Positions 3,613 through 54,526 of a DNA stretch of 64,000 nucleotides are shown piece by piece (position 1 is the first letter of the stretch; each line of letters starts with the position of its first letter). The notes beneath the pieces are model-generated. The model did no database searches, was not told the DNA's origin, and saw only the letters and a list, made by a program, of their open reading frames with translations. Source of the stretch: a virus; IMG/VR virus record IMGVR_UViG_3300045988_137804, positions 1 to 64,000 of that record. The stretch is one strand, 5' to 3'. The translations under genes and the position numbers were made by a program.

Positions 3613-3641
3613 CAAAAAGAAAAATTTATTGTGGAATATAT

Positions 3642-9969: not shown

Positions 9970-10038
9970 GGGCTGTGGTGTAATGGTAGCACATAATACT
10001 TTGACTATTATAGATCCAGTTCAAATCTGGACAGCCTA
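9970..10038 (+). tRNA. tRNA-Gln (anticodon UUG)
   Basis: Hand fold: acceptor gggctgt/acagcct (G1·U72); anticodon stem taata/tatta with loop ctTTGac; T-arm ccag-ttcaaat-ctgg. Confidence 0.7.
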
Positions 10039-10124
10039 GCTTGTGAGATTTTGGAACGTCTCACAAATATTACTCCTTTCATGGGTTATTTATAGTGCAA
10101 AAGATGTGCAGAAATGCACATCGA

Positions 10125-10210
10125 GCTGGCATGGCGGAATTGGTAGACGCAATGGACTTAAAATCCATCGGTAAAAACACACCATACGAGTTCGAGTCTC
10201 GTTGCCAGTA
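10125..10210 (+). tRNA. tRNA-Leu (anticodon UAA), class II
   Basis: D-arm tggcggaattggtagacgc is identical to the bacterial tRNA-Leu consensus. Anticodon stem atgga/tccat with loop ctTAAaa. Long variable arm. T-arm acgag-ttcgagt-ctcgt. Acceptor gctggca/tgccagt. Confidence 0.8.
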
Positions 10211-10367
10211 TTAGCCATATGAGACACTTATTCCCTGAGCAAGAATGATGAAGTCGGTACAAAAGTGCTCAATTTCTGTATTTTACATTCGTGTGTTATG
10301 CAAGCAGCACGAATGACATATGGCATTAACCCCCAACATAGGGTATTTACATTTTACAAAAATGGTT

Positions 10368-10437
10368 TGGCTGTTAGTTCAGTGGGAAGAACATCTATTG
10401 CAAGAGAGGGTCACAGGTTCGAGTCCTGTACAGTCAA
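10368..10437 (+). tRNA. tRNA-like element, probably degenerate. Acceptor, D-arm and T-arm are canonical but no regular anticodon arm can be drawn.
   Basis: Acceptor tggctgt/acagtca; D-arm gttc-agtgggaa-gaac; T-arm acagg-ttcgagt-cctgt. The middle segment contains the self-complementary TTGCAA. Confidence 0.35.
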
Positions 10438-10505
10438 CTTGACGCAGAAAACATTTGATTTTTGCATTCATGTTTTGCACGCCTCATTTCTTCAATGTGC
10501 AAAGT

Positions 10506-32385: not shown

Positions 32386-35300
32386 ATGGTAAGAGTTATT
32401 AAAAGAGATTGCTCTGAAGTTGATTTTGATAAGAATAAAATTTCAACGGCAATCTTAAAGGCTATGAAAAATGGTAGCGGAATTGTTAAACCCAAAATTG
32501 CGGAATCTATTGCAGATGAGATTGAAAAGGAATGTAAGGATCGAGAAGAGATTGATATTTCTGAAATTGAAGCAATGGTATTTGACAAGCTGATTACCAA
32601 AAAACAGAGACTTACTGCAAGAGCATATGAAGGTTATAGAAGTACAAGAGAATTCCAGAGAGAGAATGAGAATACTGTTGACGAGGAAATTCTTGGAATT
32701 GTAGAAGCAAACAACGAAGAATGGAAAGATGAAAATGCGAATAAAAATCCAGCATTAAACCCTACAATTCGTGATTATATTGCTGGATCTGTAAGTAAAG
32801 ACGCAACAAAAAGATTTTTATTATCTCCAGAAATTATTCAGAGTCATTTAGAAGGAATTATTCATTTCCATGATTCAGATTACTTTATTCAACATATGCA
32901 TAACTGCGGATTAGTAAATCTTGAAGATATGCTTCAGAATGGTACTGTTATTAGTGAAACAATGATTGAAAAGCCACATAGTTTTTCTACAGCATGTACC
33001 GTGACTACTCAGATCATTGCTCAAGTTGCATCTAGTCAGTATGGTGGACAGAGTATCTCACTTGCACATCTGGCACCGTTTGTGGATGTTTCCAGAGAGA
33101 AGATCCGTAAGGAAGTGATCAGCGAGCAGGAACTGGTCGGAATGGAATATCCGGAAGATGTGCTCAATGAGATCGTAGAGAGAAGACTGAAAAAAGAGAT
33201 TACAAAAGGTGTTCAAACAATTCAGTACCAGTTAATCACACTTATGACAACAAATGGGCAAGCACCGTTCATCACAATTTTTATGTATCTGAATGAAGCA
33301 AAGAATGAGAGAGAAAAGAAAGACCTAGCGATGTTAATTGAAGAAATGTTACTTCAGAGAAAACTTGGTGTGAAAAATGAAGATGGTGTTTATATTGCAC
33401 CAGCATTTCCAAAACTCATTTATGTTCTTGAGGATGACAATTGTAACGAATCAACAGAATATTGGTATTTAACAGAACTTGCTGCCGAATGCACGTCAAA
33501 AAGATTAGTTCCAGATTACATCTCTGAAAAAGTAATGAAAGAACTTAAAGGTGATGTGTATACATGCATGGGATGTGTTGATGGAAAAGAACTTGTTACA
33601 TATACATATAACAATAATCTTTACGTTGAATCATTTGAAAGAATGTGGAATAGACTTTCTGATAGATTTGAAATAAAACATCAGTATAATGACAACAACC
33701 CAAATCTATATATGGATTTGAGCGATGTAGAAATCTATGACACAGACAAAGGATTTGTTAATACAGAGAGAATAATCAGAAATATATCAACCTCTTGGCT
33801 TGATGTTAATTTTTCCAACGGAAGAAGATTACTTTGTACAGAAGATCACCCACTTACATTAAGAGATGGAAGAACAATCCATGCATCTGAATTAAAATTA
33901 AAGGATAGAATTCTCATTAATTCACATCAGTATAATGAAGAAAATATTGTATTCAATGAAGACAAGGCGTGGTTGTTAGGTTTTATGCTTTGTGATGGAT
34001 GTTATCAAGGCTCTTTATTTTCTTCAATTGCAGCAGAAAATGAAGATGAAATTGCAGATAAGTTTTCAGAAACAATGAAGAAATATTTTGATCTCGATAT
34101 TGAAAAAAAATTACAGCAAAGAGGTAAGAAAGGAACATATTACGATTTGATTGCACATAGTCAGAATGAAAAAATATCTGTGTATTGTAATTATTTCGCT
34201 AAAAAATTCGAAGGTCTGAATAAGATTGATAGACATGTTCCTAATGAAGTATTTTCATGGAATTATTCGTCAAAACTTGCTTTCCTGGCAGGAATGATTG
34301 ATGCAGATGGGTACATTAATAGTTCTCAGAATAAAGGATTTTCTATAGTTCAAATTGGTTCTACAAACAAAGAACTTGCATTACAACAAATGGCACTTGC
34401 ACAGTCTTTAGGTATGCCAGCAAAGCTGTACCATAACCATTACAGTAAACGTAACCCAGAATTGATTAGATACAGAGTTGAGTTTTATCCAACAGATGAA
34501 CTAATTAATTATATTGTATGTAAAAAGAAATATGATAATTATATTGATTCAAATGTATCTAGTTATAATCATGAATCTGAAGTTACTGAAATCAACAAAA
34601 TTAATAAAAAAATGTTTTCTTACGATGTAACAACAACAAGTGAGCATTTTGAAATTAGCGGAATCTATAGTCATAATTGTAGGTCTTTTTTAACTGTTGA
34701 TAGATTTTCTGATAAAGTTGGAAACATTTCTAACGCTAAAAACTTTAATGGAAAACATAAATATTACGGAAGATTTAATCAGGGTGTTGTTACAATTAAT
34801 CTTCCAGATATTGCATTTTCATCTGATGGCGACATGGATAAGTTTTGGGGAATTTTCGAAGAAAGAACAGAATTATGCCATAAGGCTTTAAAGGCTAGAC
34901 ATAACCGTTTGCTTAAAACTTCTTCTGATATTGCACCAATCCTGTGGCAGAACGGAGCATATGCAAGACTTAAAAAACATGAACCAATTGACAAACTTTT
35001 ATTTGATGGATATTCAACGATTTCTCTTGGATATGCAGGACTTTATGAGTGTGTGAAATATATGACAGGAAAATCCCATACAGATGGTGATGTAGGAGAA
35101 AAGTTTGGATTGGAAGTAATGCAAGCATTAAATGATAAATGTAATCAGTGGAAAGAAGCTGAAAACATTGATTATAGTTTGTATGGCAGCCCAATCGAAA
35201 GCACTACGTATAAATTTGCAAAGTGCTTAAAAAATAGATTCGGTGATGATATTTTTATTAAACTTGATGGATTTGATAGAAATTATATTACAAATAGTTA

Positions 35301-35730
35301 TCACGTTCCTGTGTTTGAAAGAATTACAGCATTTGACAAATTTAAAATTGAATCAAAATTCCAAAACCTTAGTCCAGGAGGCGCAATTTCGTATTGTGAA
35401 ATCCCATCAATTAACGTAAATATTCCAGCATTATTGGAAGTAATTAAATTTATTTATGACAATATTATGTACGCAGAAATCAATACAAAAGATTGTTATT
35501 GCGAAGTGTGTGGATACGATGGAGACATTCCACTTATTGACGATGATAACGGTAAACTTGTATGGGAATGCCCTAATTGTGGCAACACAGATAATACAAA
35601 AATGGACATCGCATTTAGAGTTTGTGGTTATGTTGGTACTGCAAAAAATGGTGGAAACCAAGGAAGATATGGAGATATCCACGATAGAGTTTACCACATC
35701 GATGACTTTGAATACGAGGAAAATGAATAA
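32386..35730 (+). CDS. nrdD: Anaerobic ribonucleoside-triphosphate reductase (class III) carrying an in-frame intein
   Basis: ATP-cone N-terminus. C-terminal Zn ribbon CEVCGYDG...CPNCGN and glycyl-radical motif RVCGYVG. Intein at 33574..34677. Confidence 0.85.
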   Translation: MVRVIKRDCSEVDFDKNKISTAILKAMKNGSGIVKPKIAESIADEIEKECKDREEIDISEIEAMVFDKLITKKQRLTARAYEGYRSTREFQRENENTVDEEILGIVEANNEEWKDENANKNPALNPTIRDYIAGSVSKDATKRFLLSPEIIQSHLEGIIHFHDSDYFIQHMHNCGLVNLEDMLQNGTVISETMIEKPHSFSTACTVTTQIIAQVASSQYGGQSISLAHLAPFVDVSREKIRKEVISEQELVGMEYPEDVLNEIVERRLKKEITKGVQTIQYQLITLMTTNGQAPFITIFMYLNEAKNEREKKDLAMLIEEMLLQRKLGVKNEDGVYIAPAFPKLIYVLEDDNCNESTEYWYLTELAAECTSKRLVPDYISEKVMKELKGDVYTCMGCVDGKELVTYTYNNNLYVESFERMWNRLSDRFEIKHQYNDNNPNLYMDLSDVEIYDTDKGFVNTERIIRNISTSWLDVNFSNGRRLLCTEDHPLTLRDGRTIHASELKLKDRILINSHQYNEENIVFNEDKAWLLGFMLCDGCYQGSLFSSIAAENEDEIADKFSETMKKYFDLDIEKKLQQRGKKGTYYDLIAHSQNEKISVYCNYFAKKFEGLNKIDRHVPNEVFSWNYSSKLAFLAGMIDADGYINSSQNKGFSIVQIGSTNKELALQQMALAQSLGMPAKLYHNHYSKRNPELIRYRVEFYPTDELINYIVCKKKYDNYIDSNVSSYNHESEVTEINKINKKMFSYDVTTTSEHFEISGIYSHNCRSFLTVDRFSDKVGNISNAKNFNGKHKYYGRFNQGVVTINLPDIAFSSDGDMDKFWGIFEERTELCHKALKARHNRLLKTSSDIAPILWQNGAYARLKKHEPIDKLLFDGYSTISLGYAGLYECVKYMTGKSHTDGDVGEKFGLEVMQALNDKCNQWKEAENIDYSLYGSPIESTTYKFAKCLKNRFGDDIFIKLDGFDRNYITNSYHVPVFERITAFDKFKIESKFQNLSPGGAISYCEIPSINVNIPALLEVIKFIYDNIMYAEINTKDCYCEVCGYDGDIPLIDDDNGKLVWECPNCGNTDNTKMDIAFRVCGYVGTAKNGGNQGRYGDIHDRVYHIDDFEYEENE
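33574..34677 (+). mobile_element. Intein of 368 aa with a LAGLIDADG homing-endonuclease domain, inserted in NrdD between ...YTCMG and CRSFL
   Basis: Starts with Cys (CVDGKEL) and ends ...SHN followed by Cys. LAGLIDADG motifs LLGFMLCDG and LAGMIDADG. Confidence 0.8.
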
Positions 35731-39518: not shown

Positions 39519-39863
39519 ATGCAGAAAAAGAATTACAAAGGTCGCTGCGAGAAATTAACAGTGCCAAAATCTAAGGATGTCTGCCATATCTATAATGACA
39601 TCCAAAAGTCTTATCTATTACAACTTCAGGACGATCCAAACATCAAAGAGATAAAATGTAATGTCCTTATGCTTGGATTGGAACTTGGAGAATTCACATC
39701 TGATTTTCAGTGTGTTACAGCAGACAACAATCTAATAGTGCGTGAATGTATCTCACGAGATGCTATCGCCAAACCAATGACAGCAAAACGATTAGATGCT
39801 TCAAGAGAGTATTGGTTTCGTCATGGCATAACAGATTGGGGGATTGTAACCGATGAAAAATAA
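39519..39863 (+). CDS. tnsA: TnsA-like endonuclease (short form) of a Tn7-like element
   Basis: Position and overlap with tnsB. Restriction-endonuclease-like D...E.x motif region SDFQCVTADNNLIVRECIS. AGGAG ribosome-binding site. Assignment is tentative. Confidence 0.45.
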   Translation: MQKKNYKGRCEKLTVPKSKDVCHIYNDIQKSYLLQLQDDPNIKEIKCNVLMLGLELGEFTSDFQCVTADNNLIVRECISRDAIAKPMTAKRLDASREYWFRHGITDWGIVTDEK

Positions 39864-41661
39864 GAGTCTATTTTATAATCCAAAAACCAAAGAAATATTT
39901 CGTGTGTTAGACAGTAAAGGTTCAAAAGTTCTTATCATTAATTGCACAAAGAAACAGATGCCTTATTGGACAGAATTCGATTCAATTTCTTCCTGTCGTT
40001 TAATCACAGAAGATGAATTACAGGACATGACTGGCACACATTTTCAAGAACTAACTGTACCATCAAAAGAATACAGATATGTTCAAGAAAGGTTTTCACT
40101 GATTTCAAATATCATTCCTATCATCGGAAATAAAAGCAAGCGTACTCAGATGATACGAATCATATCTGAAACAAATAATTGCAGTAAACAAACAATCAAA
40201 AACATCTTGTGCCAGTATCTCATCTATCAAAATATTTCTGCATTAGCACCGCAAAAGAGCAATGAAAAAGAACTAACAACAGATGAGAAAAACATGCGTT
40301 GGGCATTAAATAAGTTCTTCTATACAAAGAATAAGAATTCATTATCAACCGCTTACGTCATGATGCTTAAAGAAAAATATACAGATGAATACAACAACTT
40401 ATTACCACACCCAACCATTCATCAGTTCCGTTATTTCTATCGCAAAACAAAAAAGATGGAAACGTATTATATCTCAAGAGATGGCATAAAAGATTACCAA
40501 AGAAATCACAGACCATTGCTAGGAGAAGGAATTAGAACAGTTGCAAATAGCATTGGAACAGCTATGTTGGATTATACAATCTGTGATATTTATCTCGTAA
40601 ACGATAAACAAGAATTAATTGGTCGTCCATTAATGACAGCTTGCATTGATGTCTACAGCGGATTGTGTTGTGGTTACTCATTAACATGGGAAGGTGGAAT
40701 GTACAGTTTGCGTTCTTTGATGTTAAATGTGGTCACTAATAAGAAAGAACATTGTAGAAAGTTTGGAATAAATATCGAAGAATCCGACTGGAATTGTCAT
40801 CAATTACCTGCAACATTAATCACAGATAAAGGTTCAGAATATGCGTCAGAAAACTTTGAACAACTTACAGATTTAGGAGTGTCTATTATAAATCTACCAG
40901 CCTATAGACCAGAGTTAAAAGGATCAGTTGAAAAGTTTTTTGATATGATTCAATCACTTTATAAGCCACAGTTACTAGGAAAAGGTGTCATAGAATCTGA
41001 TTTCCAGGAACGTGGCTCACATGATTATAGAAGAGATGCTTGTCTAACATTAGAACAATTTGAAAAAATAATTCTTCGTTGCATCATCTATTATAATACA
41101 CAGAGAATTATCAAAAATTCACCACTGATTGAACAAAATATTCCGCCACATTCTTGTGACATATGGAACTATTATTTGACCTATAATGATGACTTTTTGA
41201 TAAGAATATCGCCACAGAATCTACTTTTATGTTTGCTACCAAGAACGAAAGGAGTGTTTAAAAGAAATGGTTTAAACGTCAATAGTCTCCGCTATAAGCA
41301 TAAAACATACACCGAAATGTATCTTGTAGGAGGAGATGTAACAGTAGCCTACAATCCAGAAGATGTTTCTTACATTTGGCTCATTGAAGAAAATGGAACG
41401 TATGTAAAATTTGAATTAATCAATTCTCAGTTCTATGGAAAGGATTTATCATTTGTAGAAAAATATATGGAGTCATCTAAGAAGCTAATTGCAGAAAATA
41501 CCGATGATAATTTACGAGCAAAAGTTACGCTTTCAAAAGATATAGATTTTGTAATTTCTGAAAGTGTACGTTCTAATGTAAGCACAAAAAATATCCGCAA
41601 GAATCGTCAGAAAGAACAGGAACTTACTCATAGAGATTTCGTAAAGGAGTATGAATTATGA
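39853..41661 (+). mobile_element. tnsB: TnsB-like DDE (Mu/rve-type) transposase
   Basis: DDE core DYTICDIY...TACIDVYSG...ITDKGSEYAS. Size and gene order fit. Confidence 0.8.
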
Positions 41662-42917
41662 TTAATATGAATAAAGTAATCAAAGAACTTCCTGATATGC
41701 TGTCCGGAAATGAACTTCAGAAAGCAATGTCTATTATTCCAAAATACGACAAACAGATTCAGGAAGATGGAAGTATGACCGAAAGACTTTTGAAATTATC
41801 TGACCTTTATAGCATTTATATTCCATCACAAATGTCTACTGAAATTTATAGCAAACTATATCTTGGAATCATTCGTTCTATGCAGAAAAAAGGAAACAAG
41901 TTAACTGTACAACAATTCAATTCAACTTATAGAACGATGCAGAATATTAAGAATAAAACTGGCAATCAGCAATATGATGGAATCATAGGTGGATCAGATT
42001 CATTTACAATTATTGGTGCAAGTGGGATAGGAAAATCATCAGCTATTTCTCGTGCATTGAATCTGATTGAAGCAAATCATGTAATAGAAATTGAACAGCC
42101 TTACACTAAAATACTTCCATGCTTAACAGTGCAATGTCCATTCGATTCTTCTGTAAAAGGATTATTACTTGAAATTCTTCGCAAAGTTGATGAGCAGTTA
42201 GGAACAGATTATGCACAAACAAAAAGGTTCACGACTGATATGCTTATAGGTGCTGTTAGTCAGGTGTGTTTAAATCATATTGGCTTGCTTGTTGTAGACG
42301 AAATACAGAACGTAGTTAATTCAAAGAACGGCAAGAACTTAATCGGATCATTGACGCAGCTAATCAACAATTCAGGCATTAGCATCTGCATGGTTGGAAC
42401 ACCAGATAGTGAAATATTCTTTGAACAGGCTATGCAATTAGCTCGTAGAAGTGTCGGATTAAAATACACAGCTTTGCCATACGATGAACATTTTTGCGAA
42501 GTATGTGAATGCTTATTTTCTTACCAATATGTAAAAAATATCACATATATAAATAGCACGACTATAGAATGGTTGTATCAACACAGTGCAGGAGTTATCT
42601 CTATTGTTGTATCATTAATTCATGATGCACAAGAGATTGCAATCTTAAATGGGAGAGAAGTATTAGATATTAAATCGTTAGACGAAGCATACAACAATAG
42701 ACTTTCTATGTTGCACGATTATATTAGACCTACTATGAGAAAGAAATCTATCGGCAATAATAAAATAAAGAAACAAAATATCATTACAACTTTGTCGATA
42801 AAAAATAGCGCAGATATTCAAACAGATTTAATACAAAGTCTTGCGAAAGAATGTAAGAAAGATGGAACAGATATTGTAGAAATACTGAGTCAACATATTA
42901 CAATTGAGGTGATTTAA
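41658..42917 (+). CDS. tnsC: TnsC-like AAA+ ATPase
   Basis: Walker A IIGASGIGKSS and Walker B LLVVDEIQN. Confidence 0.75.
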   Translation: MINMNKVIKELPDMLSGNELQKAMSIIPKYDKQIQEDGSMTERLLKLSDLYSIYIPSQMSTEIYSKLYLGIIRSMQKKGNKLTVQQFNSTYRTMQNIKNKTGNQQYDGIIGGSDSFTIIGASGIGKSSAISRALNLIEANHVIEIEQPYTKILPCLTVQCPFDSSVKGLLLEILRKVDEQLGTDYAQTKRFTTDMLIGAVSQVCLNHIGLLVVDEIQNVVNSKNGKNLIGSLTQLINNSGISICMVGTPDSEIFFEQAMQLARRSVGLKYTALPYDEHFCEVCECLFSYQYVKNITYINSTTIEWLYQHSAGVISIVVSLIHDAQEIAILNGREVLDIKSLDEAYNNRLSMLHDYIRPTMRKKSIGNNKIKKQNIITTLSIKNSADIQTDLIQSLAKECKKDGTDIVEILSQHITIEVI

Positions 42918-44318
42918 ATGATTGGATTTATGCCTAAATTATATCCAGATGAATTAGTGTATAGTTGGATTGCTAGGTATCATGTAAGAACTGGACATTA
43001 TAGTTATCAGCAAACAGCAAAACATCTACTAGATAAGAAAGCAAATATTGTCTCGAAAAAGTTTTTAAACGAATACTCAAATGAATTTTTTAACATCATC
43101 AAAAAGAATATTCCAATAAAAGAGTTAGTAATAAATCATAGTATGCTGTCAGCTTATATTAAATTTTTGCCAAAAGATAAGCGCAATAATCTAATAGAAT
43201 CCTATGAAAACAATTTAAGATATAAAGAGTCATCAATTGGATTTAAGACAAGAAGTAATGGTATTAGTATGCGATATTGTCCTATATGTGTAAAGGAAGA
43301 TCGAGAAAAATATGGAGAAACTTACTGGCACAGAGAACATCAATTTGTTGGAATTAATGTATGCACAAAGCATAAATGTTATCTTATAGATTCCAAAATG
43401 TCTGTAAAAAGTATTGATAAGTCTGAGTTTTATACCGCAGAATATGTCATAGAACAACATGATGATGTTAAGATTTCCAATAATGAGTATGAGATAAAGT
43501 TTGCCAAGTATTTTACAGAAGTCATAAATACAGAGTCAAATAATGACTCAAATATTGTGGAATATCTCAATACTATATTATTGAACTCAAAGTATAGAGC
43601 AAATGGATGTATGCTAAAAGATTTTAATAAATTGTACGATGATTATTCTGAATTATGCGAAAAGATTAATGTAAATATAATTTCTTCACAACCATCGTTA
43701 AGAGAGATATTAAAAAATAAACGCAGAACATTGGATATTTGTATCCTTGGAATGCTATTGAATATTTCGCCTTACGATCTCGTGAATAGAGTATTGCCAA
43801 ATACAAACAAAGAGGATATCAGAGAGCAAGTCATATTTTTAAGAGATGTAAAAAAGATGAGTTATAATCGTATTGCAAAAGAATTAAACGCAAGTAGAAG
43901 AGCAGTTGGTACAATATATCATAGTAAAAAAACTGAAAATGATTTAGATGTTCTTAAACTTCTTAAAGATGAACTGCCAAAATTCTATAATGGAGATTTA
44001 ACTAATGGAAGACCGCAAAAAATAACAGTATACACAGTTGAAAAACAATTTGATATTCCACAAAAAGTATTAATAAATAATAAATCCTATTATAACGAAA
44101 TAATCAAGTATGAAGAGTCTTATCCTGAATATTGGGCGAGAGAATTAGTATGGTCTTATAATAAACTAAAGGAAGATAAAGCATATATAAGTCAAAATAA
44201 AATAACCAAACAAATAAATATTCGTAAGGAGCAACCTGTAAAAGCTATACCATACATCTCTAAATATACAGACAAAGAAACTGCTGAAGCTATTAAATCA
44301 TTATTGCAAAAATCGTAA
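42918..44318 (+). CDS. tniQ: TniQ/TnsD-family target-selection protein
   Basis: N-terminal TniQ motif LYPDELVYSWIARYH and zinc ribbon CPICVKE...CTKHKC. Confidence 0.75.
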   Translation: MIGFMPKLYPDELVYSWIARYHVRTGHYSYQQTAKHLLDKKANIVSKKFLNEYSNEFFNIIKKNIPIKELVINHSMLSAYIKFLPKDKRNNLIESYENNLRYKESSIGFKTRSNGISMRYCPICVKEDREKYGETYWHREHQFVGINVCTKHKCYLIDSKMSVKSIDKSEFYTAEYVIEQHDDVKISNNEYEIKFAKYFTEVINTESNNDSNIVEYLNTILLNSKYRANGCMLKDFNKLYDDYSELCEKINVNIISSQPSLREILKNKRRTLDICILGMLLNISPYDLVNRVLPNTNKEDIREQVIFLRDVKKMSYNRIAKELNASRRAVGTIYHSKKTENDLDVLKLLKDELPKFYNGDLTNGRPQKITVYTVEKQFDIPQKVLINNKSYYNEIIKYEESYPEYWARELVWSYNKLKEDKAYISQNKITKQINIRKEQPVKAIPYISKYTDKETAEAIKSLLQKS

Positions 44319-46899: not shown

Positions 46900-48618
46900 T
46901 TATCCTATTGTTACAGTAGTACCAGAGCTATTTGACTCTTCCTTATACGGAATCGCACTTACTGATACGTTATCTTTCATGACCTTACCGCTTGTACTAA
47001 GTGACTGTGTGGTAGCTGACGGAGTTACACTATATGAGCCTGAATAAGTCTCTGGAAGTTTAGCGATAATTGCTTTAAGAATTGAAGTCACATCTGAGCC
47101 ATAAGATGAGAGAGAAGATAAGTCTCCCAGTTTTGTATTGATTTCTGATTCTGTGTAATAACGATCATCGTGCGTATGACTTGAAGCTGCTTTTCCATTA
47201 AGAGCGGTAGTAATTGTACTCTGTGTCATAGTACCATCTGTTGCAGTACCCGTACCTGTATAAAGTTTTGTAAGACCTGCTGTTGATGTTGTTCCTGTAC
47301 TGTAAGTAGTATTTGTAGGAACTACCCATGTACCATCTCCACGTAAAAATGATGCTTGTTTTCCAGCCGCAGGAGCCGGAACTAAACCTGCTTTTCCAGC
47401 AGCACTTGCTGTAGCGGCAGTCATATTGCTATAAGTTGTATTATTATCCGGTGGAACAGTCCAAGTTCCATCCTCTCTAAGATATTTTGTAGTACCTGCT
47501 GTTGTAGATGGAGCAGGTACAAGACCAGCCTTTGCTCCAGAACCAGACTTAACAAAATTTGAATATGTTGTGTTGTTATCTGCTCCCCAAACAGCAGTAC
47601 CATCCGCTGACCATCTAAGAATTTGCCCAGAAGACCCTCCGGATGGAATATGTTTATTTCCAGATGTTGTTGGGTGAGTATATACTGTATCTGTGAATTT
47701 TGCCCCGGATGGAACATCTGCATTAACTGTATGATTATTTACTTTTGATGCATTTGTTGCAGTTGAAGCATTTCCACTTAAAGCACCTTTAAAGGTTGTT
47801 GCTCTGATTGTTCCAGAAGACGGCTGAACAGACAATCCAGCACTTGAGAAAACTTGATCCGTAACAGTTGTTGGCGAGAATCCTTCTGTAGCACTATTTG
47901 AAGCACCCCAAACCAATGATCTCCAGTTTGTATAATCTGAATCTTTTACAGCTGCCTGTGTTACCTTTGTGTCCGTATTCGTATCACTTCCAGGAATACC
48001 TAATCCTGTAATATCTGCCTTTGTAACAGCAGTAGCAGCACTAACATGTCCTGTTGCATCAACTGTAACTTTGTAAAGTCCAGAAGATTTTGCTGTGTAA
48101 CTTGGATGGGTATAAACTGTATTATTATCAGTTAATTCGATAGTTGTGTTCCCAGATTGGTTCATAGTAAAAGTCCCTTTACTAGTGCCATTTTGTTTGA
48201 CAGTCACTGTACCATTACCAACTGACGGTATTGTAGCAGAACTATAAGCAAGAGAACCAAGTCCAAGCCATGATTTCAATGCGTCTTTACTGACATCCTT
48301 GATTTTTGCAATATTTGAACCACCGTCTCCGCCTGTATATCCTGCAATGAATTTAATGTTATCTCCTGTAATTCCACTTCCGCTATAACCAATCTTAATA
48401 TTTTTTGATGTATTTCCATAATCGACTACAGTAGTAGCCGAATCCGCACTTGTTGCTTTAGTCGCAGTATCTGCATTTCCCTGTAATTTTCCAATAAATG
48501 TTGGAGCTGTAACTGAGTCGCTTACATATAATTTTGACAAAAGCCTCGAAACTCCCGTTACGATTAGATTGCTTAACTGAGCCAAGTTAACTCCTCCTTT
48601 CGTATATTTAAAAATCAA
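46900..48618 (-). CDS. Tail fibre protein with Phage_fiber_2-type repeats
   Basis: YTHPSYTAKSSGLYKVTVDATGHVS module and C-terminal SHTHDDRYYTESEIN. Confidence 0.65.
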   Translation of the reverse strand: MIFKYTKGGVNLAQLSNLIVTGVSRLLSKLYVSDSVTAPTFIGKLQGNADTATKATSADSATTVVDYGNTSKNIKIGYSGSGITGDNIKFIAGYTGGDGGSNIAKIKDVSKDALKSWLGLGSLAYSSATIPSVGNGTVTVKQNGTSKGTFTMNQSGNTTIELTDNNTVYTHPSYTAKSSGLYKVTVDATGHVSAATAVTKADITGLGIPGSDTNTDTKVTQAAVKDSDYTNWRSLVWGASNSATEGFSPTTVTDQVFSSAGLSVQPSSGTIRATTFKGALSGNASTATNASKVNNHTVNADVPSGAKFTDTVYTHPTTSGNKHIPSGGSSGQILRWSADGTAVWGADNNTTYSNFVKSGSGAKAGLVPAPSTTAGTTKYLREDGTWTVPPDNNTTYSNMTAATASAAGKAGLVPAPAAGKQASFLRGDGTWVVPTNTTYSTGTTSTAGLTKLYTGTGTATDGTMTQSTITTALNGKAASSHTHDDRYYTESEINTKLGDLSSLSSYGSDVTSILKAIIAKLPETYSGSYSVTPSATTQSLSTSGKVMKDNVSVSAIPYKEESNSSGTTVTIG

Positions 48619-49295
48619 TATTCGATAAAGTCATCGAACTCTATTTTGTTTTCGTATATCTTGTTTGAATTTGGGATAGAATAAATCCCGTGAATTTGAT
48701 CATTATAAGACGGTCTATAAATTTCTGTTCCTTCATGGATTCTAAGACCTGTAAATAAAATGTATCCTTGTGTAAACGTATTTTCCAAATTTGGGTTTGG
48801 GTAAAACATAATATAAATCTTTCCATCATCTGCATTTGATCTAAATTTTGCCCAAACCAATATCACTTTTCCTTTTGTAGTGTCTACAATACTCCACGAG
48901 TTACCGTTTGTATTATATTTTTCTGTATACGAACAACCATGTTCTAAATGTAATCGAAAATCCGCATCACAATCCTCAGAAACATAAGCGTACATGCTTA
49001 CTGTGAAATCTCCATTTTTTATTCTTTCTTTTTGCCAATCGAGAATATAAGAGTAAACCATGAATCGTTTTGTATTATTCCAATATTTTCGTTTCTCCTC
49101 TGATACGGGATTAATTTTTTTACAAGTATCAAATCCATAAGGAAGAAAAATATCCGTCTTATAGTTAGATTCACAGGTACAATTACTATTTGCTATATTT
49201 TGTTTTCCTAAATATAAATTTTGCGGGGGGGGGGTAACAGAATAGTTTACATCAATTATCCCATTTTCATTAAGTTGCGTCATTCTATCCTCCAA
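48615..49295 (-). CDS. Tail-module hypothetical protein with a C10 homopolymer at codons about 21-24 (TPPP)
   Basis: G10 on the + strand at 49225..49234. Confidence 0.5.
   Translation of the reverse strand: MEDRMTQLNENGIIDVNYSVTPPPQNLYLGKQNIANSNCTCESNYKTDIFLPYGFDTCKKINPVSEEKRKYWNNTKRFMVYSYILDWQKERIKNGDFTVSMYAYVSEDCDADFRLHLEHGCSYTEKYNTNGNSWSIVDTTKGKVILVWAKFRSNADDGKIYIMFYPNPNLENTFTQGYILFTGLRIHEGTEIYRPSYNDQIHGIYSIPNSNKIYENKIEFDDFIEY
49225..49234. repeat. G10/C10 homopolymeric tract inside a coding sequence
   Basis: Counted directly. It encodes ...VTPPPQ. Confidence 0.8.
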
Positions 49296-49313: not shown

Positions 49314-49709
49314 CTAAAATTCAATGAAATCTGCCGATGAAATTCCACTTTCATTAAAAGTACATTTTGATGTTATTTCTGTGTCTATGCGGTAATATAA
49401 GTCGTAATAACCATCTATAACCACTTCTCCAAGTGTAGATGGAATACCACCATTAAATTTATTCCAACAACCGATAGCTCCCCACCAGTTACTGCTATAT
49501 GTATTGTTCATACAGAGATAAGTATTACCTTTCTTTAGATAAACTCCACCGTAACTACTTGAAGTCCAATATTCATCACCTGTATAGACCTCAACATCAT
49601 CGTGACCCACATCTGCGAAAGCAGCAGTCATCGGATTTACATTTTGAATAAACCTATATTTAAAATCTGGATTACTTTCTGTTATTTTTGAATTGTCATA
49701 AGTTCCCAT
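49314..49709 (-). CDS. hypothetical tail-module protein
   Basis: ORF only. Confidence 0.45.
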   Translation of the reverse strand: MGTYDNSKITESNPDFKYRFIQNVNPMTAAFADVGHDDVEVYTGDEYWTSSSYGGVYLKKGNTYLCMNNTYSSNWWGAIGCWNKFNGGIPSTLGEVVIDGYYDLYYRIDTEITSKCTFNESGISSADFIEF

Positions 49710-49960
49710 TTGCCTGACGTGTTGTAATTACATAATGAAACATTAAACCATGCATTTTCGTTCTTGTATACATGTGTTGCAAATGAGTCAGATTCTGAGA
49801 ATAAGTTAAAAGAACCGTCAGATAAGACGGGAGTATGATGAAAGACTCTTACCCATACTGATCCATCTGATTCAGTATAAAAGTTTGAGTCATACATATT
49901 AATAATAGGAGAGGTAGCAAATGCAGTTGCAAGGATGTTTCCATTTTTACAAATATTCAT
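49682..49960 (-). CDS. hypothetical tail-module protein
   Basis: ORF only. Confidence 0.4.
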   Translation of the reverse strand: MNICKNGNILATAFATSPIINMYDSNFYTESDGSVWVRVFHHTPVLSDGSFNLFSESDSFATHVYKNENAWFNVSLCNYNTSGKWELMTIQK

Positions 49961-49962: not shown

Positions 49963-50523
49963 TTACACCTCCTCAATCTGTATTGCTACGATTTTATCTG
50001 AAGCAATTGAACCAGATTTAGTAGAGTTGTCAATAGCATATTCTGCTGGCATAACCTTGATATTTGAGAATGTAATTCTTCCTATACCATTCGAATAGTC
50101 ACTACGAACTCCTAAGTATTGTCGTGTCCATTTGTCGTCTTTATTATTAAAGAATCCAGATACAAATTTTGATCCAGATTTTGCACTAAGAACCAAATCT
50201 TTGTTTAATACTTTATTTACAACAGTACACATCGAGTTTCCACTAGACCAATAATATGTATTATCATTTTTGTTAAACGTTGATCCTTGCGCCCATATAT
50301 CAAAATTATCTGCAACATTTTCTTGAAATCCGTCCCAAGAAATAAGAAGCTCAATGTAATACCTTTTAGTTCCTTCAAATCCAGCAATTGATTCTCCAGT
50401 TAATGTTGAGTTATTAGTATCTTTCCTTGGAACATATGTAACACTTTTGACATTATTCATCAACACTCCACCATGCTCATACATTTCAGTTCCAGTTACA
50501 TTACCATTCTTATATATACTCAT
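49963..50523 (-). CDS. hypothetical tail-module protein
   Basis: ORF only. Confidence 0.45.
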   Translation of the reverse strand: MSIYKNGNVTGTEMYEHGGVLMNNVKSVTYVPRKDTNNSTLTGESIAGFEGTKRYYIELLISWDGFQENVADNFDIWAQGSTFNKNDNTYYWSSGNSMCTVVNKVLNKDLVLSAKSGSKFVSGFFNNKDDKWTRQYLGVRSDYSNGIGRITFSNIKVMPAEYAIDNSTKSGSIASDKIVAIQIEEV

Positions 50524-50524: not shown

Positions 50525-50770
50525 TTAAACCACCGCCTTCCGGTAATTTAGATTTCCATAACTTCTCTTGTTGGTCTGTTTTGTCATATAATAATATATT
50601 TTTCCTGGCGTTATATGGCAATACTGATTTGTTATTGTATATATATCATTACTTATTCCGGAAAGAACATATGGATTTTCTTTTGTATATTTCTCAGAAT
50701 TTACTAATATATTCATCGCATCTGATTCATATATATTTTCTTTTTTAATATTTCCATTTTTATTTATCAC
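50525..50770 (-). CDS. hypothetical small protein
   Basis: ORF only. Confidence 0.35.
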   Translation of the reverse strand: MINKNGNIKKENIYESDAMNILVNSEKYTKENPYVLSGISNDIYTITNQYCHITPGKIYYYMTKQTNKRSYGNLNYRKAVV

Positions 50771-52575
50771 TGCTCAATAAATTCTCCTTGTGTCATTAGA
50801 GTACCTGTATTAGTAATAGATACAGGTGTCTTATATAAGTTCATAACATCTTCAGCAGAGAGTGCTGTGGCGTAGATACGAAAGTCAGAAAGATAACCGT
50901 TAGTCCAATTACCTTTTGGGATTCCATTATCAGAATTTTCCGATCCTCCAATTGTCCCTTTTGTGCCAACTCCTTGTAATGTCCCAACTTCATCTTTTGT
51001 CGAAACTAAATTTCCATCTACGTATAATTTTTTGGCTGTGTTACTTCTTGTTACACAAATATGATGCCAACAATTTGTGGTCACAAGATAATCAAATTCT
51101 GTATGTACTTCATCATCAAGTCTTATTACACCTCCAAGAAAGAATACGGCTACTCCAACACCAACGGCTGTTCTTGCAGTATATATAGTGTGCACAGTAT
51201 TTTTTGTAAAATAAGCCCAACAAGCAATAGAAAAATCTGTAGCTGTAGAATTGATTGGATTTTGGACTCCGATATAATTTGAACTACCATTAAATTTATA
51301 ACAACAATTATATCTAGGTGAATCATTATAGATGGTAGGAGCAGAAGAGGAAGTAATCCATCCGTGATGACCAAAGCCAGAAGTATCATAGATTGTGTTA
51401 TCATACATTTCTGGAGTATCTTTTAGAGATGTCATATAAGGAGTGGGAGATGAACCAAGTTCCACTTTTGCATTCTTTACATAAAGATCAGCATTATATC
51501 CGCCTCCGACACAAAAGTAATCAGAATCTTTGCCAGTATACAAATCTCTTAATGTCACGGTTACAGAATATCTTGTCCATTCATCACTTTTAACATCATC
51601 CATTAAATCTCCAAACTCGCGTCTGTTCCAGAAATCAATAGAAGAAGTTGTTGTACTCCAATACTGAATATAAGGACTTCCGCTATCTATAGTTCCTTTT
51701 ACATCAACTGAAAAGGTTACAACATCTCCTGTTTTTAATCCGGAATTCTTACGTTCAAAATTTATACAAATCCCATTTGAATTAAAAATGCCAGTATTTC
51801 CAGTTTTAAAATGCCAACCTTCCGATGTTACTTCGTTGATGATGATATTATTTATTACACCATCACCCCAGTTTCTCCCATTCCAATCAATTAACCCTGA
51901 AGAATCTAATAAGTTTCTTCCAATGATATTTCCATCAATCATACTCATCGGATAATGGCACATTAACCCTTGAGATAAAAGACGAACTTCTTTAGGAGAT
52001 ATGGCATTATTGTAAATACGATAATCATTAAACATATGATATTCTGAATTGTAAATCATCTGTGTGTCATAAGCAAATGTAGAAGAGTTACTAACTTTTC
52101 CGCCTTCAGACCATTTTAGTTGTCCATTAATATAGATATTAATAGTAGGATTTTTATATACAACTGCAACATGTGTCCATTGATAGGATGGAAGTACACC
52201 TTTTATAAAATTTCCACAAAATATTGTATTTTCAGCATCATTCATCCAACTCCAATGAAAGTCATTACATGTAGGATATTGAAATAATGAAAACTTTCTA
52301 CTATTGTTTGCTGTCATATTATCGTTTCCAAATATCCTTGTGCGATTTGTAGTACTTCCTTCTTCCGCATTTACATATATCCAGAAAGCAATAGTAAGTT
52401 CATCATTATTTAGAACCTTTTCTGTACCTTCAGCCGGAATCAAAACTCCGCCTTTATTTAAACACTTTCCAAGTTTTCCGTCTTTGTAAGTTGCTCCTGT
52501 AACTTGTAAATCTACGTCCAGTAATCCCTGATTATTAGTATGTCCGTTCAGTGGCAGGTGTATCATCAAACTCAT
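50767..52575 (-). CDS. Receptor-binding or tail-fibre protein with LamG/concanavalin-like lectin domains (paralog A)
   Basis: DYRIYNNAISPKEV and DFRIYATALSAEDVMNLY, which are LamG-type signatures. The C-terminus TPVSITNTGTLMTQGEF is shared with the upstream paralog. GGAGG ribosome-binding site. Confidence 0.6.
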   Translation of the reverse strand: MSLMIHLPLNGHTNNQGLLDVDLQVTGATYKDGKLGKCLNKGGVLIPAEGTEKVLNNDELTIAFWIYVNAEEGSTTNRTRIFGNDNMTANNSRKFSLFQYPTCNDFHWSWMNDAENTIFCGNFIKGVLPSYQWTHVAVVYKNPTINIYINGQLKWSEGGKVSNSSTFAYDTQMIYNSEYHMFNDYRIYNNAISPKEVRLLSQGLMCHYPMSMIDGNIIGRNLLDSSGLIDWNGRNWGDGVINNIIINEVTSEGWHFKTGNTGIFNSNGICINFERKNSGLKTGDVVTFSVDVKGTIDSGSPYIQYWSTTTSSIDFWNRREFGDLMDDVKSDEWTRYSVTVTLRDLYTGKDSDYFCVGGGYNADLYVKNAKVELGSSPTPYMTSLKDTPEMYDNTIYDTSGFGHHGWITSSSAPTIYNDSPRYNCCYKFNGSSNYIGVQNPINSTATDFSIACWAYFTKNTVHTIYTARTAVGVGVAVFFLGGVIRLDDEVHTEFDYLVTTNCWHHICVTRSNTAKKLYVDGNLVSTKDEVGTLQGVGTKGTIGGSENSDNGIPKGNWTNGYLSDFRIYATALSAEDVMNLYKTPVSITNTGTLMTQGEFIEQ

Positions 52576-52622
52576 ACAACTACCTCCAGAATATTCAGAC
52601 AGTTTCTATCTATTTTTTTTTT

Positions 52623-52640
52623 TTTTTTTGAATAATTTCT
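52623..52640. repeat. T18 (A18 on the coding strand) homopolymeric tract in the 84-bp spacer between the two LamG receptor-binding protein genes, 48-65 nt upstream of the paralog-A start codon
   Basis: Counted directly. Confidence 0.8.
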
Positions 52641-52659: not shown

Positions 52660-54503
52660 CTACATCTCCTTAAATTCACCCTGAGTCATTAATGTTCCAG
52701 TATTCGTAAGTGACACTGGCGTATTGTATAATTCTTTTATATCTTGATCCGATAGAGCAGTAGCATACATTCTGAAATCTGATATAGAATAATCAGAAGT
52801 GGAAGAGCTGTCCTCACTATAACAATTACCAATACGATGTAATGCATGTGCTGATGCATACTCGGTATCTATATTGCTGTGTGTAACAGTTTTTCTCAAC
52901 ACGCCATTTAAATAATATTTGGCTGTATGTGTTTCTAAATCCCATGTGATTGTGAACATATTCCATACATTTAAATTAACATCAAACGTACATGTATTAC
53001 TGCAACAATCCATTGTAATAGCTTGTGCCCCTGTAGAACCAATTATAATAAAATCATATTTGTTTCCTGTCCAGTTATAACCATTTGCAAAAAATAGATA
53101 AGTTCTCCATGTATTGCTAGTTGAATGTCTATTAATCCAGAGATTTGCTGTTCCCTGAGACATATTTTCAAATGAAAAATTCGGTGTAATTATTCCTGTT
53201 TGCGCACCATTTAATAGTTTGCATGAACCATCATATCTTGGAGCATCGTTGTTATATGAAATATAATCTTTATTATACATTGTTCCATGATTCCCATAAC
53301 CACTTGTATCATAAACAATTCCATCATTCCAAGCACCATTACTTATAGGAGTATCAACATCACATTCTGATACTTGCACATCTTTAAGGTCAAAATCAAA
53401 TGAAAAAGTTGCGTCTTTAGTAGCCATAGCACTTGTATAAAATTCTAAGATTGGGTTAGTTTTATAAGTTGTTCCAGATCTATCTGATGTTTCTTCAAGT
53501 TGGATAATTAAATGATGTTCTCGCCATTTACCATCAGCCAAACTTGACGAGCAGACTGTTGAATTTTTAGGTCTAGCCCAGTCATTATCCATTCTACTTG
53601 CTCTTAATTCAAAAGATACATTAGAAGTACATGTATTGCATCTAGTCTTACAACTATAATCATATTTCTTTCCTGCCGTGAAATTAAATACTGGAAAGCT
53701 AATTGACTTCCAACTATTTGTTCCAGTACCTGTATATGTATATTTATAATTATATCCACGTTCATCTGTTAGCTTTGTACATGTTATATCATTTACACCA
53801 CCATTGGCTCTTCCTTCAAAGAAATCTCCGGAATATTTATTAATAGAAGCAGTAGGATACGGATCGTTTAAAGGATAGTGACAGATCATACCTTTTGCTA
53901 ATTCTTTAATTTCGCGTGGTGATAGGGCGTTGTCGTAGATGCGGATGTCTGACATATAAGATTGATACATCATATCGCCTTTAATTCTAGAGCCAATTGT
54001 AATTGATTTGTTTGAACCCCAAATATCAGACAAGTTATTAACCTTTGTTTTTTCTACTATTAAAGAACCATTAACATAAAATTTTCTACTTGTTCCATCA
54101 ATTATAAATGCAATATGATGCCATTTGTCATTTGACAAATTAAAAAGACATGTATTTCCACCAATTAAACCTTTTGAGTCTGAAAACCAATAGTAACCAG
54201 TCGTCGTATTTACTTCTAACCGATTATCATATTCGCCTATTGCAAATATATCTGACCATGCTCTAGGTGTCTTTGGTTTTACCCATAATGCAATAGTCAA
54301 TTCTTCTGAGTCATATTCCCACGGGACTCTTAAACAATAATCTCCCATAGATATACTCTTACCAAATTTATCATCTATATACGAAGGACTTGATGATGCT
54401 GTAATATTCATCGTACCAAGTCCATGATTTTCTAAGTTGTTCTGTGTGTTTAACCACACTTGTAAAGCCAATAAAGACCACTCCCTTTCTTTGAAAAAAG
54501 GAG
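52660..54503 (-). CDS. Receptor-binding or tail-fibre protein with LamG-like domains (paralog B)
   Basis: DIRIYDNALSPREIKEL and DFRMYATALSDQDIKELY. The start was reassigned to the ATG at 54503 (AAGGAG ribosome-binding site), because the maximal ORF start at 54609 overlaps the upstream gene. Confidence 0.6.
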
Positions 54504-54526
54504 CAGAATTCATCCGCTCCTTAATA

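What the first reader, a model, noticed from the sequence alone, without database searches (positions are those of the whole stretch)
49225..49234. C10 homopolymer inside a tail-module gene: slipped-strand phase variation candidate
A run of 10 G (C on the coding strand) encodes TPPP at codons about 21-24 of the 226-aa protein 48615..49295. Slippage of one or two units would truncate the protein after about 25 residues. Tracts this long are hypermutable contingency loci. In a tail-fibre block this suggests on/off switching of a tail accessory protein or host-range factor.
Basis: seen in the sequence. Interest (0 to 1): 0.6.

Follow-up and report, generated by a model that had tools for sequence, protein, structure and literature searches.

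The report
Slippery poly-C switch in phage tail gene
A run of ten C's near the start of a small tail-module gene of an uncultured ~200-kb gut phage changes length between otherwise identical phage genomes, switching the gene in and out of frame, which is the same bet-hedging trick already known from Campylobacter phages and T-even phages.

Summary
The G10 run (C10 on the coding strand) is real, at 49225..49234. It is the only G/C run longer than 5 in 64 kb of 33%-GC DNA (about 0.002 expected). It lies at codons 17-20 of a 222-aa gene (ATG 49283, stop 48615) in a tail-fibre block.

Four contigs from other samples match the window over 1.4-10 kb, and their only difference is C9 instead of C10, which cuts the ORF to 24 codons. 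Relatives carry C6, C7, C9 and C10 in frame, and C8, C9, C8ACC and C3AC5ACC out of frame. A lineage only 55% identical in protein keeps a C9/C10 tract at the same position.

Frames downstream of out-of-frame tracts stay open (202-216 codons) with dN/dS 0.14-0.3, so this is not plain gene decay. CCC is 0.8% of proline codons here, so the run is a DNA-level feature.

The protein models as a carbohydrate-binding-module-like beta-sandwich. In other phages the domain is fused to Laminin_G_3 tail proteins. Neighbouring tail genes carry further variable homopolymers.

The mechanism is already known (Fletchervirus polyG tracts, T2/T4 contingency loci), so this is a new member of a known kind. Read-level heterogeneity and any phenotype remain untested.

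The parts
49225..49234 (-). C10 homopolymer (G10 on + strand), codons 17-20 of the gene. This is the hypermutable tract.
   Evidence: unique outlier. (sole difference from the C9 contigs L021-L024). (alleles C6, C7, C8, C9, C10, C8ACC, C3AC5ACC in relatives).
48615..49283 (-). 222-aa tail-module protein: an N-terminal 'NENGII' hairpin motif, the Pro linker (tract), a CBM-like beta-sandwich core from about residue 30 to 185, and a C-terminal 'DFIEY' motif.
   Evidence: identical P0001, 222 aa. (model pLDDT 73.7, pTM 0.76). (CBM4/16/22/35-like; phage tail fibre/RBP models). (domain fused to Laminin_G_3 proteins elsewhere).
49289..49293 (-). Shine-Dalgarno GGAGG, 5 nt upstream of ATG 49283.
   Evidence: Conserved in L001, L002 and L007.
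49314..49960 (-). Adjacent upstream module gene, intact at 215-217 aa in relatives. In the window it is broken into 92-aa and 131-aa ORFs at a mid-gene poly-A run (A5 at 49685..49689 plus a 2-nt deletion).
   Evidence: alignment: A10 intact (L025, L028), A7 intact (L002), A9 split (L029), A15 split (L007), A5 split (window); poly-A and poly-C are the only indels between L029 and L025.
52613..52629 (-). Intergenic A17 (T17 on +), about 40 nt upstream of the start of the 602-aa Laminin_G_3 gene. Its length is variable.
   Evidence: A18 in L016 is the only difference in 12.7 kb. A17 in L021, A18 in L022. G9 at the same relative position in L008.
50767..52575 (-). 602-aa tail protein with two Laminin_G_3 domains, ending in 'GEFIEQ'.
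52660..54513 (-). 617-aa tail protein with two Laminin_G_3 domains (listed as a 649-aa ORF from an upstream GTG), ending in 'GEFKEM'.
49963..50523 (-). 186-aa small module gene with an N-terminal 'IYKNGNV' motif.
   Evidence: Conserved as a 186-aa gene in L001, L002, L007 and L025.
50525..50770 (-). 81-aa ORF starting 'VINKNGNI' directly after the 602-aa gene, possibly a remnant module.
   Evidence: 76 aa in L002, followed there by an IS110 insertion.
46900..48585 (-). Downstream 561-aa fibre-like gene with its own RBS (AGGAGGAG) and TTG start 30 nt after the stop of the 222-aa gene. It is therefore probably not translationally coupled to the switch.
   Evidence: Weak PHROG hits.

Best explanation
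The C10 run is a simple-sequence contingency locus. During phage DNA replication the polymerase slips on the homopolymer and adds or removes a C. Because the run lies 50 nt into the ORF, lengths of 7, 10 or 13 give the full 222-aa protein, and every other length stops translation after 23-32 codons. A phage population therefore keeps producing a mix of virions with and without this protein. The protein is most likely a small glycan-binding (CBM-like beta-sandwich) module of the tail-fibre apparatus. It is the free-standing version of a domain that other phages carry fused to Laminin_G_3 tail proteins. The tract encodes a proline linker between the N-terminal 'KNGxI' joint motif and the domain core, a position that tolerates 1 to 4 prolines. 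Switching would change which receptor-binding or decorating modules the tail displays, which is bet-hedging on adsorption or host range. Shown here: the tract, its hypervariability between otherwise identical genomes, the frame consequences, purifying selection on the ORF, and the tail context. Inferred: slipped-strand mispairing as the cause, reversibility, virion location, glycan binding, and the adaptive value.
For: (1) The run is a unique outlier, about 0.002 expected. (2) L021, L022, L023 and L024 come from four other samples and match the window with 0 mismatches over 10.0, 4.3, 2.5 and 1.4 kb downstream of the A-run. The single difference is C9 vs C10, which gives a 24-codon ORF. (3) Allele series in close relatives: C6AG, C7G, C9AG and C10G in frame; C8AG, C9G, C8ACC and C3AC5ACC out of frame. 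L025 and L029 have identical post-tract ORFs but different tract alleles, and the only indels between them in 5.6 kb are in the poly-C and poly-A runs. (4) Full-length/truncated protein pairs with 100% identical C-terminal parts: P0001/P0020, P0024/P0023, P0028/P0032, P0030/P0034, plus P0046/P0007 at 99.5%. That means at least 5 independent events. (5) A lineage only 55% identical in protein (dS saturated) has a C9 (out of frame, L015) or C10 (in frame, P0046) tract at the same codon position. (6) All out-of-frame alleles keep 202-216 open codons after the tract, and dN/dS is 0.14-0.32 even for pairs both sampled out of frame. (7) CCC is 3 of 391 Pro codons (0.8%) in the window, and no other Pro-Pro pair uses CCC, so the run is kept at the DNA level. 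More distant homologs lack the PPP insertion altogether. (8) The tract lies in a low-confidence linker (residues 1-20) ahead of a beta-sandwich core. (9) Fold matches are CBMs and phage tail fibres/RBPs, and the domain is fused to Laminin_G_3 tail proteins in P0057/58/60/63/65. (10) The same behaviour is seen in neighbouring genes and in distant relatives. (11) Precedent: Fletchervirus polyG tracts in RBP genes and T2/T4 contingency loci.
Against: No reads were available, so heterogeneity within a single population, the switching rate and real-time reversibility are not shown. About two thirds of assembled contigs of close relatives carry a truncated call (34 vs 18 contigs). Some lineages have interrupted, out-of-frame tracts in every sample seen (C3AC5ACC in L025-28/30/33; C5TCC in L010-14), or a decayed 5' end with two frameshifts and no tract (L008/L009). 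That could equally mean the gene is dispensable and often lost. The function is inferred from a moderate-confidence model with modest TM-scores (0.4-0.57). There is no Pfam or PHROG hit. The host is unknown.
Confidence: 0.72

Rival explanations
1. Neutral mutational hotspot in a dispensable, decaying gene. The tract slips, but the on/off states are not used adaptively, and the gene is on its way to becoming a pseudogene in many lineages.
For: Truncated calls outnumber full-length ones (34 vs 18 contigs in clusters 1-5). Interrupted tracts are fixed out of frame in several lineages. L008/L009 have two 5' frameshifts and no tract. The neighbouring 216-aa gene is also broken in the window and other contigs, once by a nonsense mutation (L001).
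Against: The post-tract frame is open for 202-216 codons in every out-of-frame allele. dN/dS is 0.14-0.32, including OFF-OFF pairs. A C9/C10 tract built from the rarest Pro codon persists at the same site in lineages with saturated dS. Several in-frame lengths (C6, C7, C9, C10) exist on closely related backgrounds, which implies repeated returns to frame.
Confidence: 0.15
2. Recoding. 'Out-of-frame' alleles still yield full-length protein through ribosomal frameshifting on CCC_C proline codons or through transcriptional slippage on the run, so the tract tunes the amount of protein rather than switching it off.
For: Out-of-frame alleles dominate, yet the ORF is under purifying selection. From general knowledge, runs of CCC codons are +1-frameshift-prone and long homopolymers promote RNA polymerase slippage (reviewed in PMC5009743, listed but not read here).
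Against: There is no downstream stimulatory element or extended alternative-frame product, and both other frames stop within 5-12 codons of the tract. The lineages fixed out of frame have interrupted tracts (C3AC5ACC, C5TCC) that would slip poorly. Alleles need corrections in both directions (-1 and +1). In-frame genomic alleles exist on the same backgrounds, so DNA-level switching is sufficient.
Confidence: 0.08
3. Sequencing or assembly artefact. The length differences are homopolymer miscalls, and the true tract is invariant.
For: G/C homopolymers of 9-10 are error-prone on short-read platforms. L024 has only about 1.6x coverage. No reads could be examined.
Against: C9 was recovered in four samples from two projects and two assemblers. 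C6 was recovered in five samples, C3AC5ACC in six contigs including 201-209 kb genomes, and C8ACC in three. Alleles differ by 2-4 nt and by interrupting bases, not only by +/-1. In-frame peptide variants TPQQ/TPPQ/TPPQQ/TPPPQ are seen in independent records. The same pattern occurs at other tracts (G7 vs G9 as the sole difference in 8.6 kb).
Confidence: 0.05

Closest known systems
Hypermutable polyG tracts in receptor-binding-protein genes of Campylobacter Fletchervirus phages (Sorensen et al. 2021, Cell Rep 35:109214; cited)
   Same: G/C homopolymer of 7-11 nt inside a tail/host-recognition gene of a large virulent phage. Length changes shift the frame and create phenotypically mixed progeny. 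Several tracts per genome.
   Different: No sequence homology: tblastn of the 222-aa protein against 50,697 phage records found nothing. The phage lineage (uncultured ~200-kb human-gut phage, DNA polymerase 34% identical to Brevibacillus phage Sundance) and the probable Gram-positive host (choline-binding endolysin) are both different. Here the switched gene is a small free-standing CBM-like module rather than a large RBP. Phenotype is untested.
Contingency loci of coliphages T2/T4 (Gomez, Barrick & Waters 2025, bioRxiv 10.1101/2025.10.21.683753)
   Same: Homopolymer SSRs in phage ORFs that give reversible frameshifts by polymerase slippage, interpreted as bet-hedging.
   Different: Those tracts are mostly runs of 6 or more in AT-rich genomes and in genes such as agt and rIIA. 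That study found SSRs under-represented in tail-fibre genes of BASEL coliphages. Here a C10 outlier sits in a tail module, and tail genes are where the tracts cluster.
Bacterial SSR phase variation (Campylobacter, Haemophilus and Neisseria contingency genes; general knowledge, reviewed in PMC11868660 and PMC8355987, listed)
   Same: A 5'-proximal intragenic G/C homopolymer, ON/OFF by frameshift, and surface-interaction genes.
   Different: It is encoded by a virus, so switching happens during phage replication and diversifies virions rather than cells.
Other phage tail-fibre diversification systems: Mu Gin / P1 Cin invertible segments and diversity-generating retroelements (BPP-1) (general knowledge; cited)
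   Same: The same presumed purpose, a mixed population with alternative host-recognition equipment.
   Different: Entirely different mechanisms (site-specific inversion; reverse-transcriptase mutagenesis). No invertase or RT is involved at this locus.

Membership tests
SSR contingency locus (slipped-strand phase variation) | Simple-sequence repeat long enough to slip (homopolymer of about 7 or more) inside an ORF or promoter | tested here: met
   C10 at codons 17-20, the only G/C run longer than 5 in 64 kb.
SSR contingency locus (slipped-strand phase variation) | Tract length is polymorphic among otherwise identical or near-identical genomes | tested here: met
   C9 vs C10 is the sole difference over 1.4-10 kb in four contigs. 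C8ACC vs C3AC5ACC occur on identical ORFs. Lengths C6-C10 occur among relatives 82-100% identical in protein.
SSR contingency locus (slipped-strand phase variation) | Length changes toggle the reading frame, and off-lengths give early termination | tested here: met
   Observed ORFs of 24-32 codons in C8/C9/C8ACC/C3AC5ACC alleles. All non-3n lengths were simulated.
SSR contingency locus (slipped-strand phase variation) | Switching is recurrent and reversible (both directions) | tested here: inconclusive
   At least 5 ON/OFF pairs on identical backgrounds and four different in-frame lengths imply repeated events, and purifying selection persists. Direction and reversibility cannot be read from static assemblies.
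SSR contingency locus (slipped-strand phase variation) | Mixed tract lengths within one population at a rate far above the base mutation rate | not testable with these tools
   No read data were available.
SSR contingency locus (slipped-strand phase variation) | ON and OFF states differ in phenotype | not testable with these tools
   The phage is uncultured and the host unknown.
Fletchervirus polyG-tract RBP genes | Sequence homology to Fletchervirus receptor-binding proteins | tested here: not met
   tblastn of the 222-aa protein against 50,697 phage records gave no match at E<=1e-3. No PHROG hit.
Fletchervirus polyG-tract RBP genes | G/C tract of 7-11 nt located in a host-recognition (tail) gene | tested here: met
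   C10 in a gene inside the tail-fibre block. The domain is fused to Laminin_G_3 tail proteins in other phages. A receptor-binding role itself is not shown.
Programmed ribosomal frameshift site (e.g. tail chaperone G/GT type) | The alternative frame encodes an extended, conserved product | tested here: not met
   Both alternative frames stop 5-12 codons after the tract.
Carbohydrate-binding-module-like beta-jelly-roll (CBM4/16/22/35 fold class) | Structural similarity of a confident model to solved CBMs | tested here: inconclusive
   Model pLDDT 73.7, pTM 0.76. Foldseek E 2e-5 to 1e-3 to CBMs and a hyaluronan-binding module, but TM is only 0.4-0.57. Viral hits are tail fibres and RBPs. No Pfam hit, and no ligand-site analysis was done.

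The most novel reading that the evidence does not exclude
The tract is one switch of a multi-switch tail 'phasome'. This clade of large gut phages builds the distal tail from small plug-in CBM-like modules that dock through a conserved '...EFIE' C-terminal / 'xKNGxI' N-terminal joint, the same joint that links the domains covalently in fused homologs. Independent homopolymers are placed in the linkers next to these joints or upstream of module genes: C10 in the 222-aa gene, poly-A in the 216-aa gene, A17/G9 upstream of a Laminin_G_3 gene, C9 before the C-terminal joint in L008, and G7-G9 in L017-L020. Each module would be switched separately, giving combinatorial virion populations. In the OFF state the 24-aa product still contains the N-terminal joint motif and might cap the docking site.
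Probability: 0.3. Interest if true: 0.72.

Novelty: new member of a known kind. Interest (0 to 1): 0.5.

Why it matters
If it holds, homopolymer-driven phase variation of host-recognition genes extends from Campylobacter phages and T-even coliphages to a clade of large, uncultured human-gut phages with probable Gram-positive hosts. Public metagenome assemblies alone can reveal ON and OFF alleles on identical backgrounds. There is also a practical consequence for annotation: in these phages many 'truncated' or 'split' tail genes in assemblies are switch states rather than pseudogenes or errors, and host-range predictions from a single consensus genome will be incomplete. The clustering of tracts in the tail module contrasts with the reported depletion of SSRs in coliphage tail-fibre genes.

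Tried and rejected
- **Nucleotide search of the tail block** against 50,697 phage records found no match.
- **Exact-pattern scans** for the tract's 5' flank in IMG/VR and JGI metagenome contigs found no matches. The relatives came instead from protein look-ups in ENA/Logan assemblies.
- **Pfam and PHROGs** on the 222-aa protein and its small neighbours gave no family.
- **Profile-profile comparison** with the window's own 602-aa and 649-aa Laminin_G_3 proteins showed no homology. The domain is not a copy of their middle domains.
- **Host identification** through bacterial genomes found no relative.
- **tblastn against cultured phages** found none.
- **Programmed frameshift with an alternative C-terminal product** is rejected, because both other frames stop within 12 codons.
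- **G-quadruplex or terminator roles** were considered and dropped. A single G-run cannot form an intramolecular quadruplex, and the run lies inside an ORF with no adjacent inverted repeat. This is my reading of the sequence, not a tool test.
- **An internal restart at Met75** as a functional short isoform is unlikely. I saw no Shine-Dalgarno motif upstream of it, and the product would lack the first two core strands of the model.

Full report
**1. Observation**

The + strand carries ten G's at 49225..49234, which is C10 on the coding (-) strand. The window is 33.2% G+C. Apart from this run, no G or C homopolymer exceeds 5 bases, and the expected number of G10 runs is about 0.002 (iid) or 0.0005 (first-order Markov).

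The ORF 48615..49295 exists, but its TTG overlaps the Shine-Dalgarno GGAGG at 49289..49293. The start is ATG 49283, which gives 222 aa. This agrees with the identical database protein P0001 (222 aa, on contigs up to 204,834 bp, named 'MAG TPA Caudoviricetes sp.') and with all homologs. The tract is GTT ACC CCC CCC CCG CAA, encoding V-T-P-P-P-Q at codons 16-21.

**2. Context**

The gene lies in a minus-strand tail block:
- a 1026-aa fibre protein (Phage_fiber_rpt);
- two proteins of about 600 aa, each with two Laminin_G_3 domains;
- small ORFs of 81, 186, 92+131 and 222 aa;
- two fibre-like proteins of 561 and 420 aa;
- an Amidase_2 / choline-binding-repeat endolysin.

The rest of the window encodes replication and nucleotide-metabolism genes: a DnaB-like helicase, RecJ, a PolIII-alpha-type polymerase, exonuclease V and NrdD. 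The polymerase is only about 34% identical to that of Brevibacillus phage Sundance. No cultured phage or bacterial genome encodes a homolog of the 222-aa protein. This is therefore an uncultured human-gut phage of about 200 kb, with a probable Gram-positive host. The host assignment is an inference from the endolysin.

**3. The tract is hypervariable**

The homology search found 19 proteins, several of them N-terminally truncated. Their DNA shows the following alleles.

| Locus or protein | Tract allele | Reading frame |
|---|---|---|
| Window, L016, L001 | C10+G | in frame |
| L002-L006 (five samples) | C6+AG | in frame |
| P0033 | C7 (peptide TPPQ) | in frame |
| P0021 | C9 (peptide TPPQQ) | in frame |
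| L007 | C8+AG | out of frame, 24 codons |
| L021-L024 (four samples, two projects) | C9+G | out of frame, 24 codons |
| L029, L031, L032 | C8ACC | out of frame, 32 codons |
| L025-L028, L030, L033 (includes 201-209 kb genomes) | C3AC5ACC | out of frame, 25 codons |

The decisive comparison is with L021-L024. They match the window with zero mismatches over 10.0, 4.3, 2.5 and 1.4 kb, and the single difference is C9 versus C10.

L025 and L029 have identical post-tract ORFs but different tract alleles. The only two indels between them in 5.6 kb are in this poly-C run and in a poly-A run of the neighbouring gene.

Among cluster members, full-length and truncated proteins with 100% identical C-terminal parts occur four times (P0001/P0020, P0024/P0023, P0028/P0032, P0030/P0034) and once at 99.5% (P0046/P0007). 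By contig counts, close relatives show 18 contigs with full-length calls and 34 with truncated calls. Only P0020, P0022, P0004, P0005, P0007 and P0008 were verified at the DNA level.

**4. Depth of conservation**

A lineage only 53-55% identical in protein carries, at the same codon position, three forms:
- C9+ACCC, out of frame (L015);
- C10, in frame (P0046, APPPPT);
- interrupted ACACCCCCTCCT, out of frame by one base (L010-L014, five samples).

L008/L009 have no tract and two frameshifts in the first 25 or so codons. More distant homologs (P0009-P0019) lack the proline insertion entirely.

**5. Selection**

Every out-of-frame allele keeps 202-216 open codons after the tract. Nei-Gojobori dN/dS over that region is 0.14-0.32 for nearly all pairs, including pairs both sampled out of frame (L010-L015 0.145, L007-L025 0.21). 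The exception is the closest ON-ON pair, at 0.50.

CCC is 3 of 391 proline codons in 28 large ORFs of the window, and none of the seven other Pro-Pro dicodons uses CCC. The run is therefore maintained as DNA, not as a by-product of coding prolines.

All non-3n lengths stop within 23-32 codons, and no extended alternative-frame product exists.

**6. What the protein is**

There is no Pfam or PHROG match. An exhaustive profile search found only 35 representative clusters. In several of them the domain is part of proteins of about 760-960 aa with Laminin_G_3 domains, either C-terminal (P0057, P0058) or between two Laminin_G_3 domains (P0060, P0063, P0068 and others).

In P0057/58 the junction reads '...HGFEFIE DESKQS IYKNGQI...'. 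The same '...EFIE[stop]' / 'xxxKNGxI' pattern occurs at the gene boundaries of the window: 602 aa ends GEFIEQ, 81 aa starts VINKNGNI, 186 aa starts MSIYKNGNV, 92 aa starts MNICKNGNI, 131 aa ends ADFIEF, and 222 aa starts MTQLNENGII and ends DFIEY. The small genes therefore look like split-off versions of distal tail-protein domains.

The AlphaFold model (pLDDT 73.7, pTM 0.76) is a beta-sandwich from about residue 30 to 185, with a low-confidence N-terminal 20 residues that include the tract. Foldseek matches are carbohydrate-binding modules (CBM4/16/22/35, a hyaluronan-binding module). Among viral models the matches are tail fibres and receptor-binding proteins. TM-scores are only 0.4-0.57. 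The window's own Laminin_G_3 proteins do not contain the domain.

**7. More tracts nearby**

- **Upstream gene.** It is 215-217 aa when intact and has a mid-gene poly-A run: A10 or A7 intact; A9, A15, or A5 plus a 2-nt deletion split. The window copy is the 92+131-aa split form.
- **Intergenic run.** The run upstream of the 602-aa gene is A17 in the window and L021, and A18 in L016 and L022. In L016 that is the only difference from the window in 12.7 kb. L008 has G9 at the same relative position, and also a C9 encoding STPPQ just before the C-terminal GEFVEY motif of its 181-aa module gene.
- **Distant IMG/VR relatives.** L017-L020 carry G7-G9 tracts in flanking tail genes. L020 and L017 are identical over 8.6 kb except for G7 versus G9, which splits a 319-aa gene.

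**8. Interpretation**

The best explanation is a slipped-strand contingency locus that switches a small CBM-like tail module on and off (confidence about 0.7). The main rival is a neutral hotspot in a dispensable gene. It is weakened by the purifying selection, the open frames and the maintenance of the tract with the rarest Pro codon. It is not excluded, because out-of-frame alleles dominate and some lineages look locked off. Recoding and sequencing artefact are minor rivals (see the rival explanations).

**9. Comparison with what is known**

Functionally this matches the polyG tracts in receptor-binding-protein genes of Campylobacter Fletchervirus phages (Sorensen 2021, cited) and the contingency loci recently described in T2/T4 (10.1101/2025.10.21.683753). 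That preprint also mentions polyG tracts in BPP-1 and PB1-like phages.

There is no sequence homology to any cultured phage protein, so this is not a member of the Fletchervirus RBP families. It works like them. The preprint reports SSRs to be under-represented in tail-fibre genes of coliphages, whereas in this clade the tracts cluster in the tail module.

I rate it a new member of a known kind, with interest 0.5. The comparative evidence is unusually clean and the multi-tract tail module is worth following. The principle is established, and the key population-level and phenotypic tests could not be run here.

Noticed in passing
window 49314..49960 (- strand); poly-A remnant at 49685..49689: The gene upstream of the target is a frameshifted copy (92-aa + 131-aa overlapping ORFs) of a 215-217-aa gene that is intact in L002, L025 and L028. 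The break is at a mid-gene poly-A run whose length varies among relatives: A5, A7, A9, A10, A15. L001 has A10 but a TAT->TAG nonsense mutation. This is a second variable homopolymer next to the first.
   Followed up: partly
window 52613..52629: T17 on the + strand (A17 on the coding strand) lies between the two Laminin_G_3 genes, about 40 nt upstream of the 602-aa gene's start. A18 in L016 is the only difference from the window in 12.7 kb. L008 has G9 at the same relative position. L021 diverges from the window immediately upstream of this run, so it may also mark a mosaic boundary. Its effect on expression is unknown.
   Followed up: partly
L017-L020 (IMG/VR contigs of 47-379 kb), about 1463, 5011 and 7000: Distant relatives (42% protein identity) carry G7-G9 tracts in tail genes flanking the homolog. 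L020 and L017 are identical over 8.6 kb except for G7 vs G9, which splits a 319-aa gene. L017 (G8) vs L019 (G9) changes whether two ORFs are fused.
   Followed up: partly
window 48615..52575 gene boundaries; P0057/P0058/P0060: A recurrent joint motif. Tail-module proteins end in '[DE]F[IKV]E[x]' and the next begins 'xxxKNGxI'. In fused homologs the same two motifs are contiguous within one polypeptide ('GFEFIEDESKQSIYKNGQI'). This suggests gene fission and fusion at a conserved inter-domain joint, and possibly non-covalent docking of the free modules.
   Followed up: partly
L008:4046 (C9) in the 181-aa gene 3568..4113: A C9 tract encoding S-T-P-P-Q lies about 18 codons before the C-terminal GEFVEY joint motif of the homolog of the window's 186-aa module gene. 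The window copy has no tract there.
   Followed up: no
window 39853..44318 (+ strand): Three genes beside the endolysin encode a Mu-transposase-C-domain protein (602 aa), TniB (419 aa) and TniQ (466 aa), a Tn7/Tn5053-like transposition module inside a phage genome. It is conserved at the same place in relatives (L016, L021, L025, L027).
   Followed up: partly
L002 and L003, 2497..3618: An IS110-family transposase (DEDD_Tnp_IS110/Transposase_20) is inserted between the 76-aa ORF and the 186-aa module gene of the tail block in two samples.
   Followed up: no
window 9745..10438: A cluster of four tRNA genes (Met, Gln, Leu, and one that ARAGORN reports as tRNA-??? with a two-base 'gc' anticodon).
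   Followed up: no
window 32386..35730 (+ strand): A 1114-aa NrdD-like anaerobic ribonucleotide reductase. The PHROG match covers mainly residues 762-1106 in two stretches, so the protein is much longer than the matched profile (718 positions) and may carry an insertion or an extra N-terminal domain.
   Followed up: no
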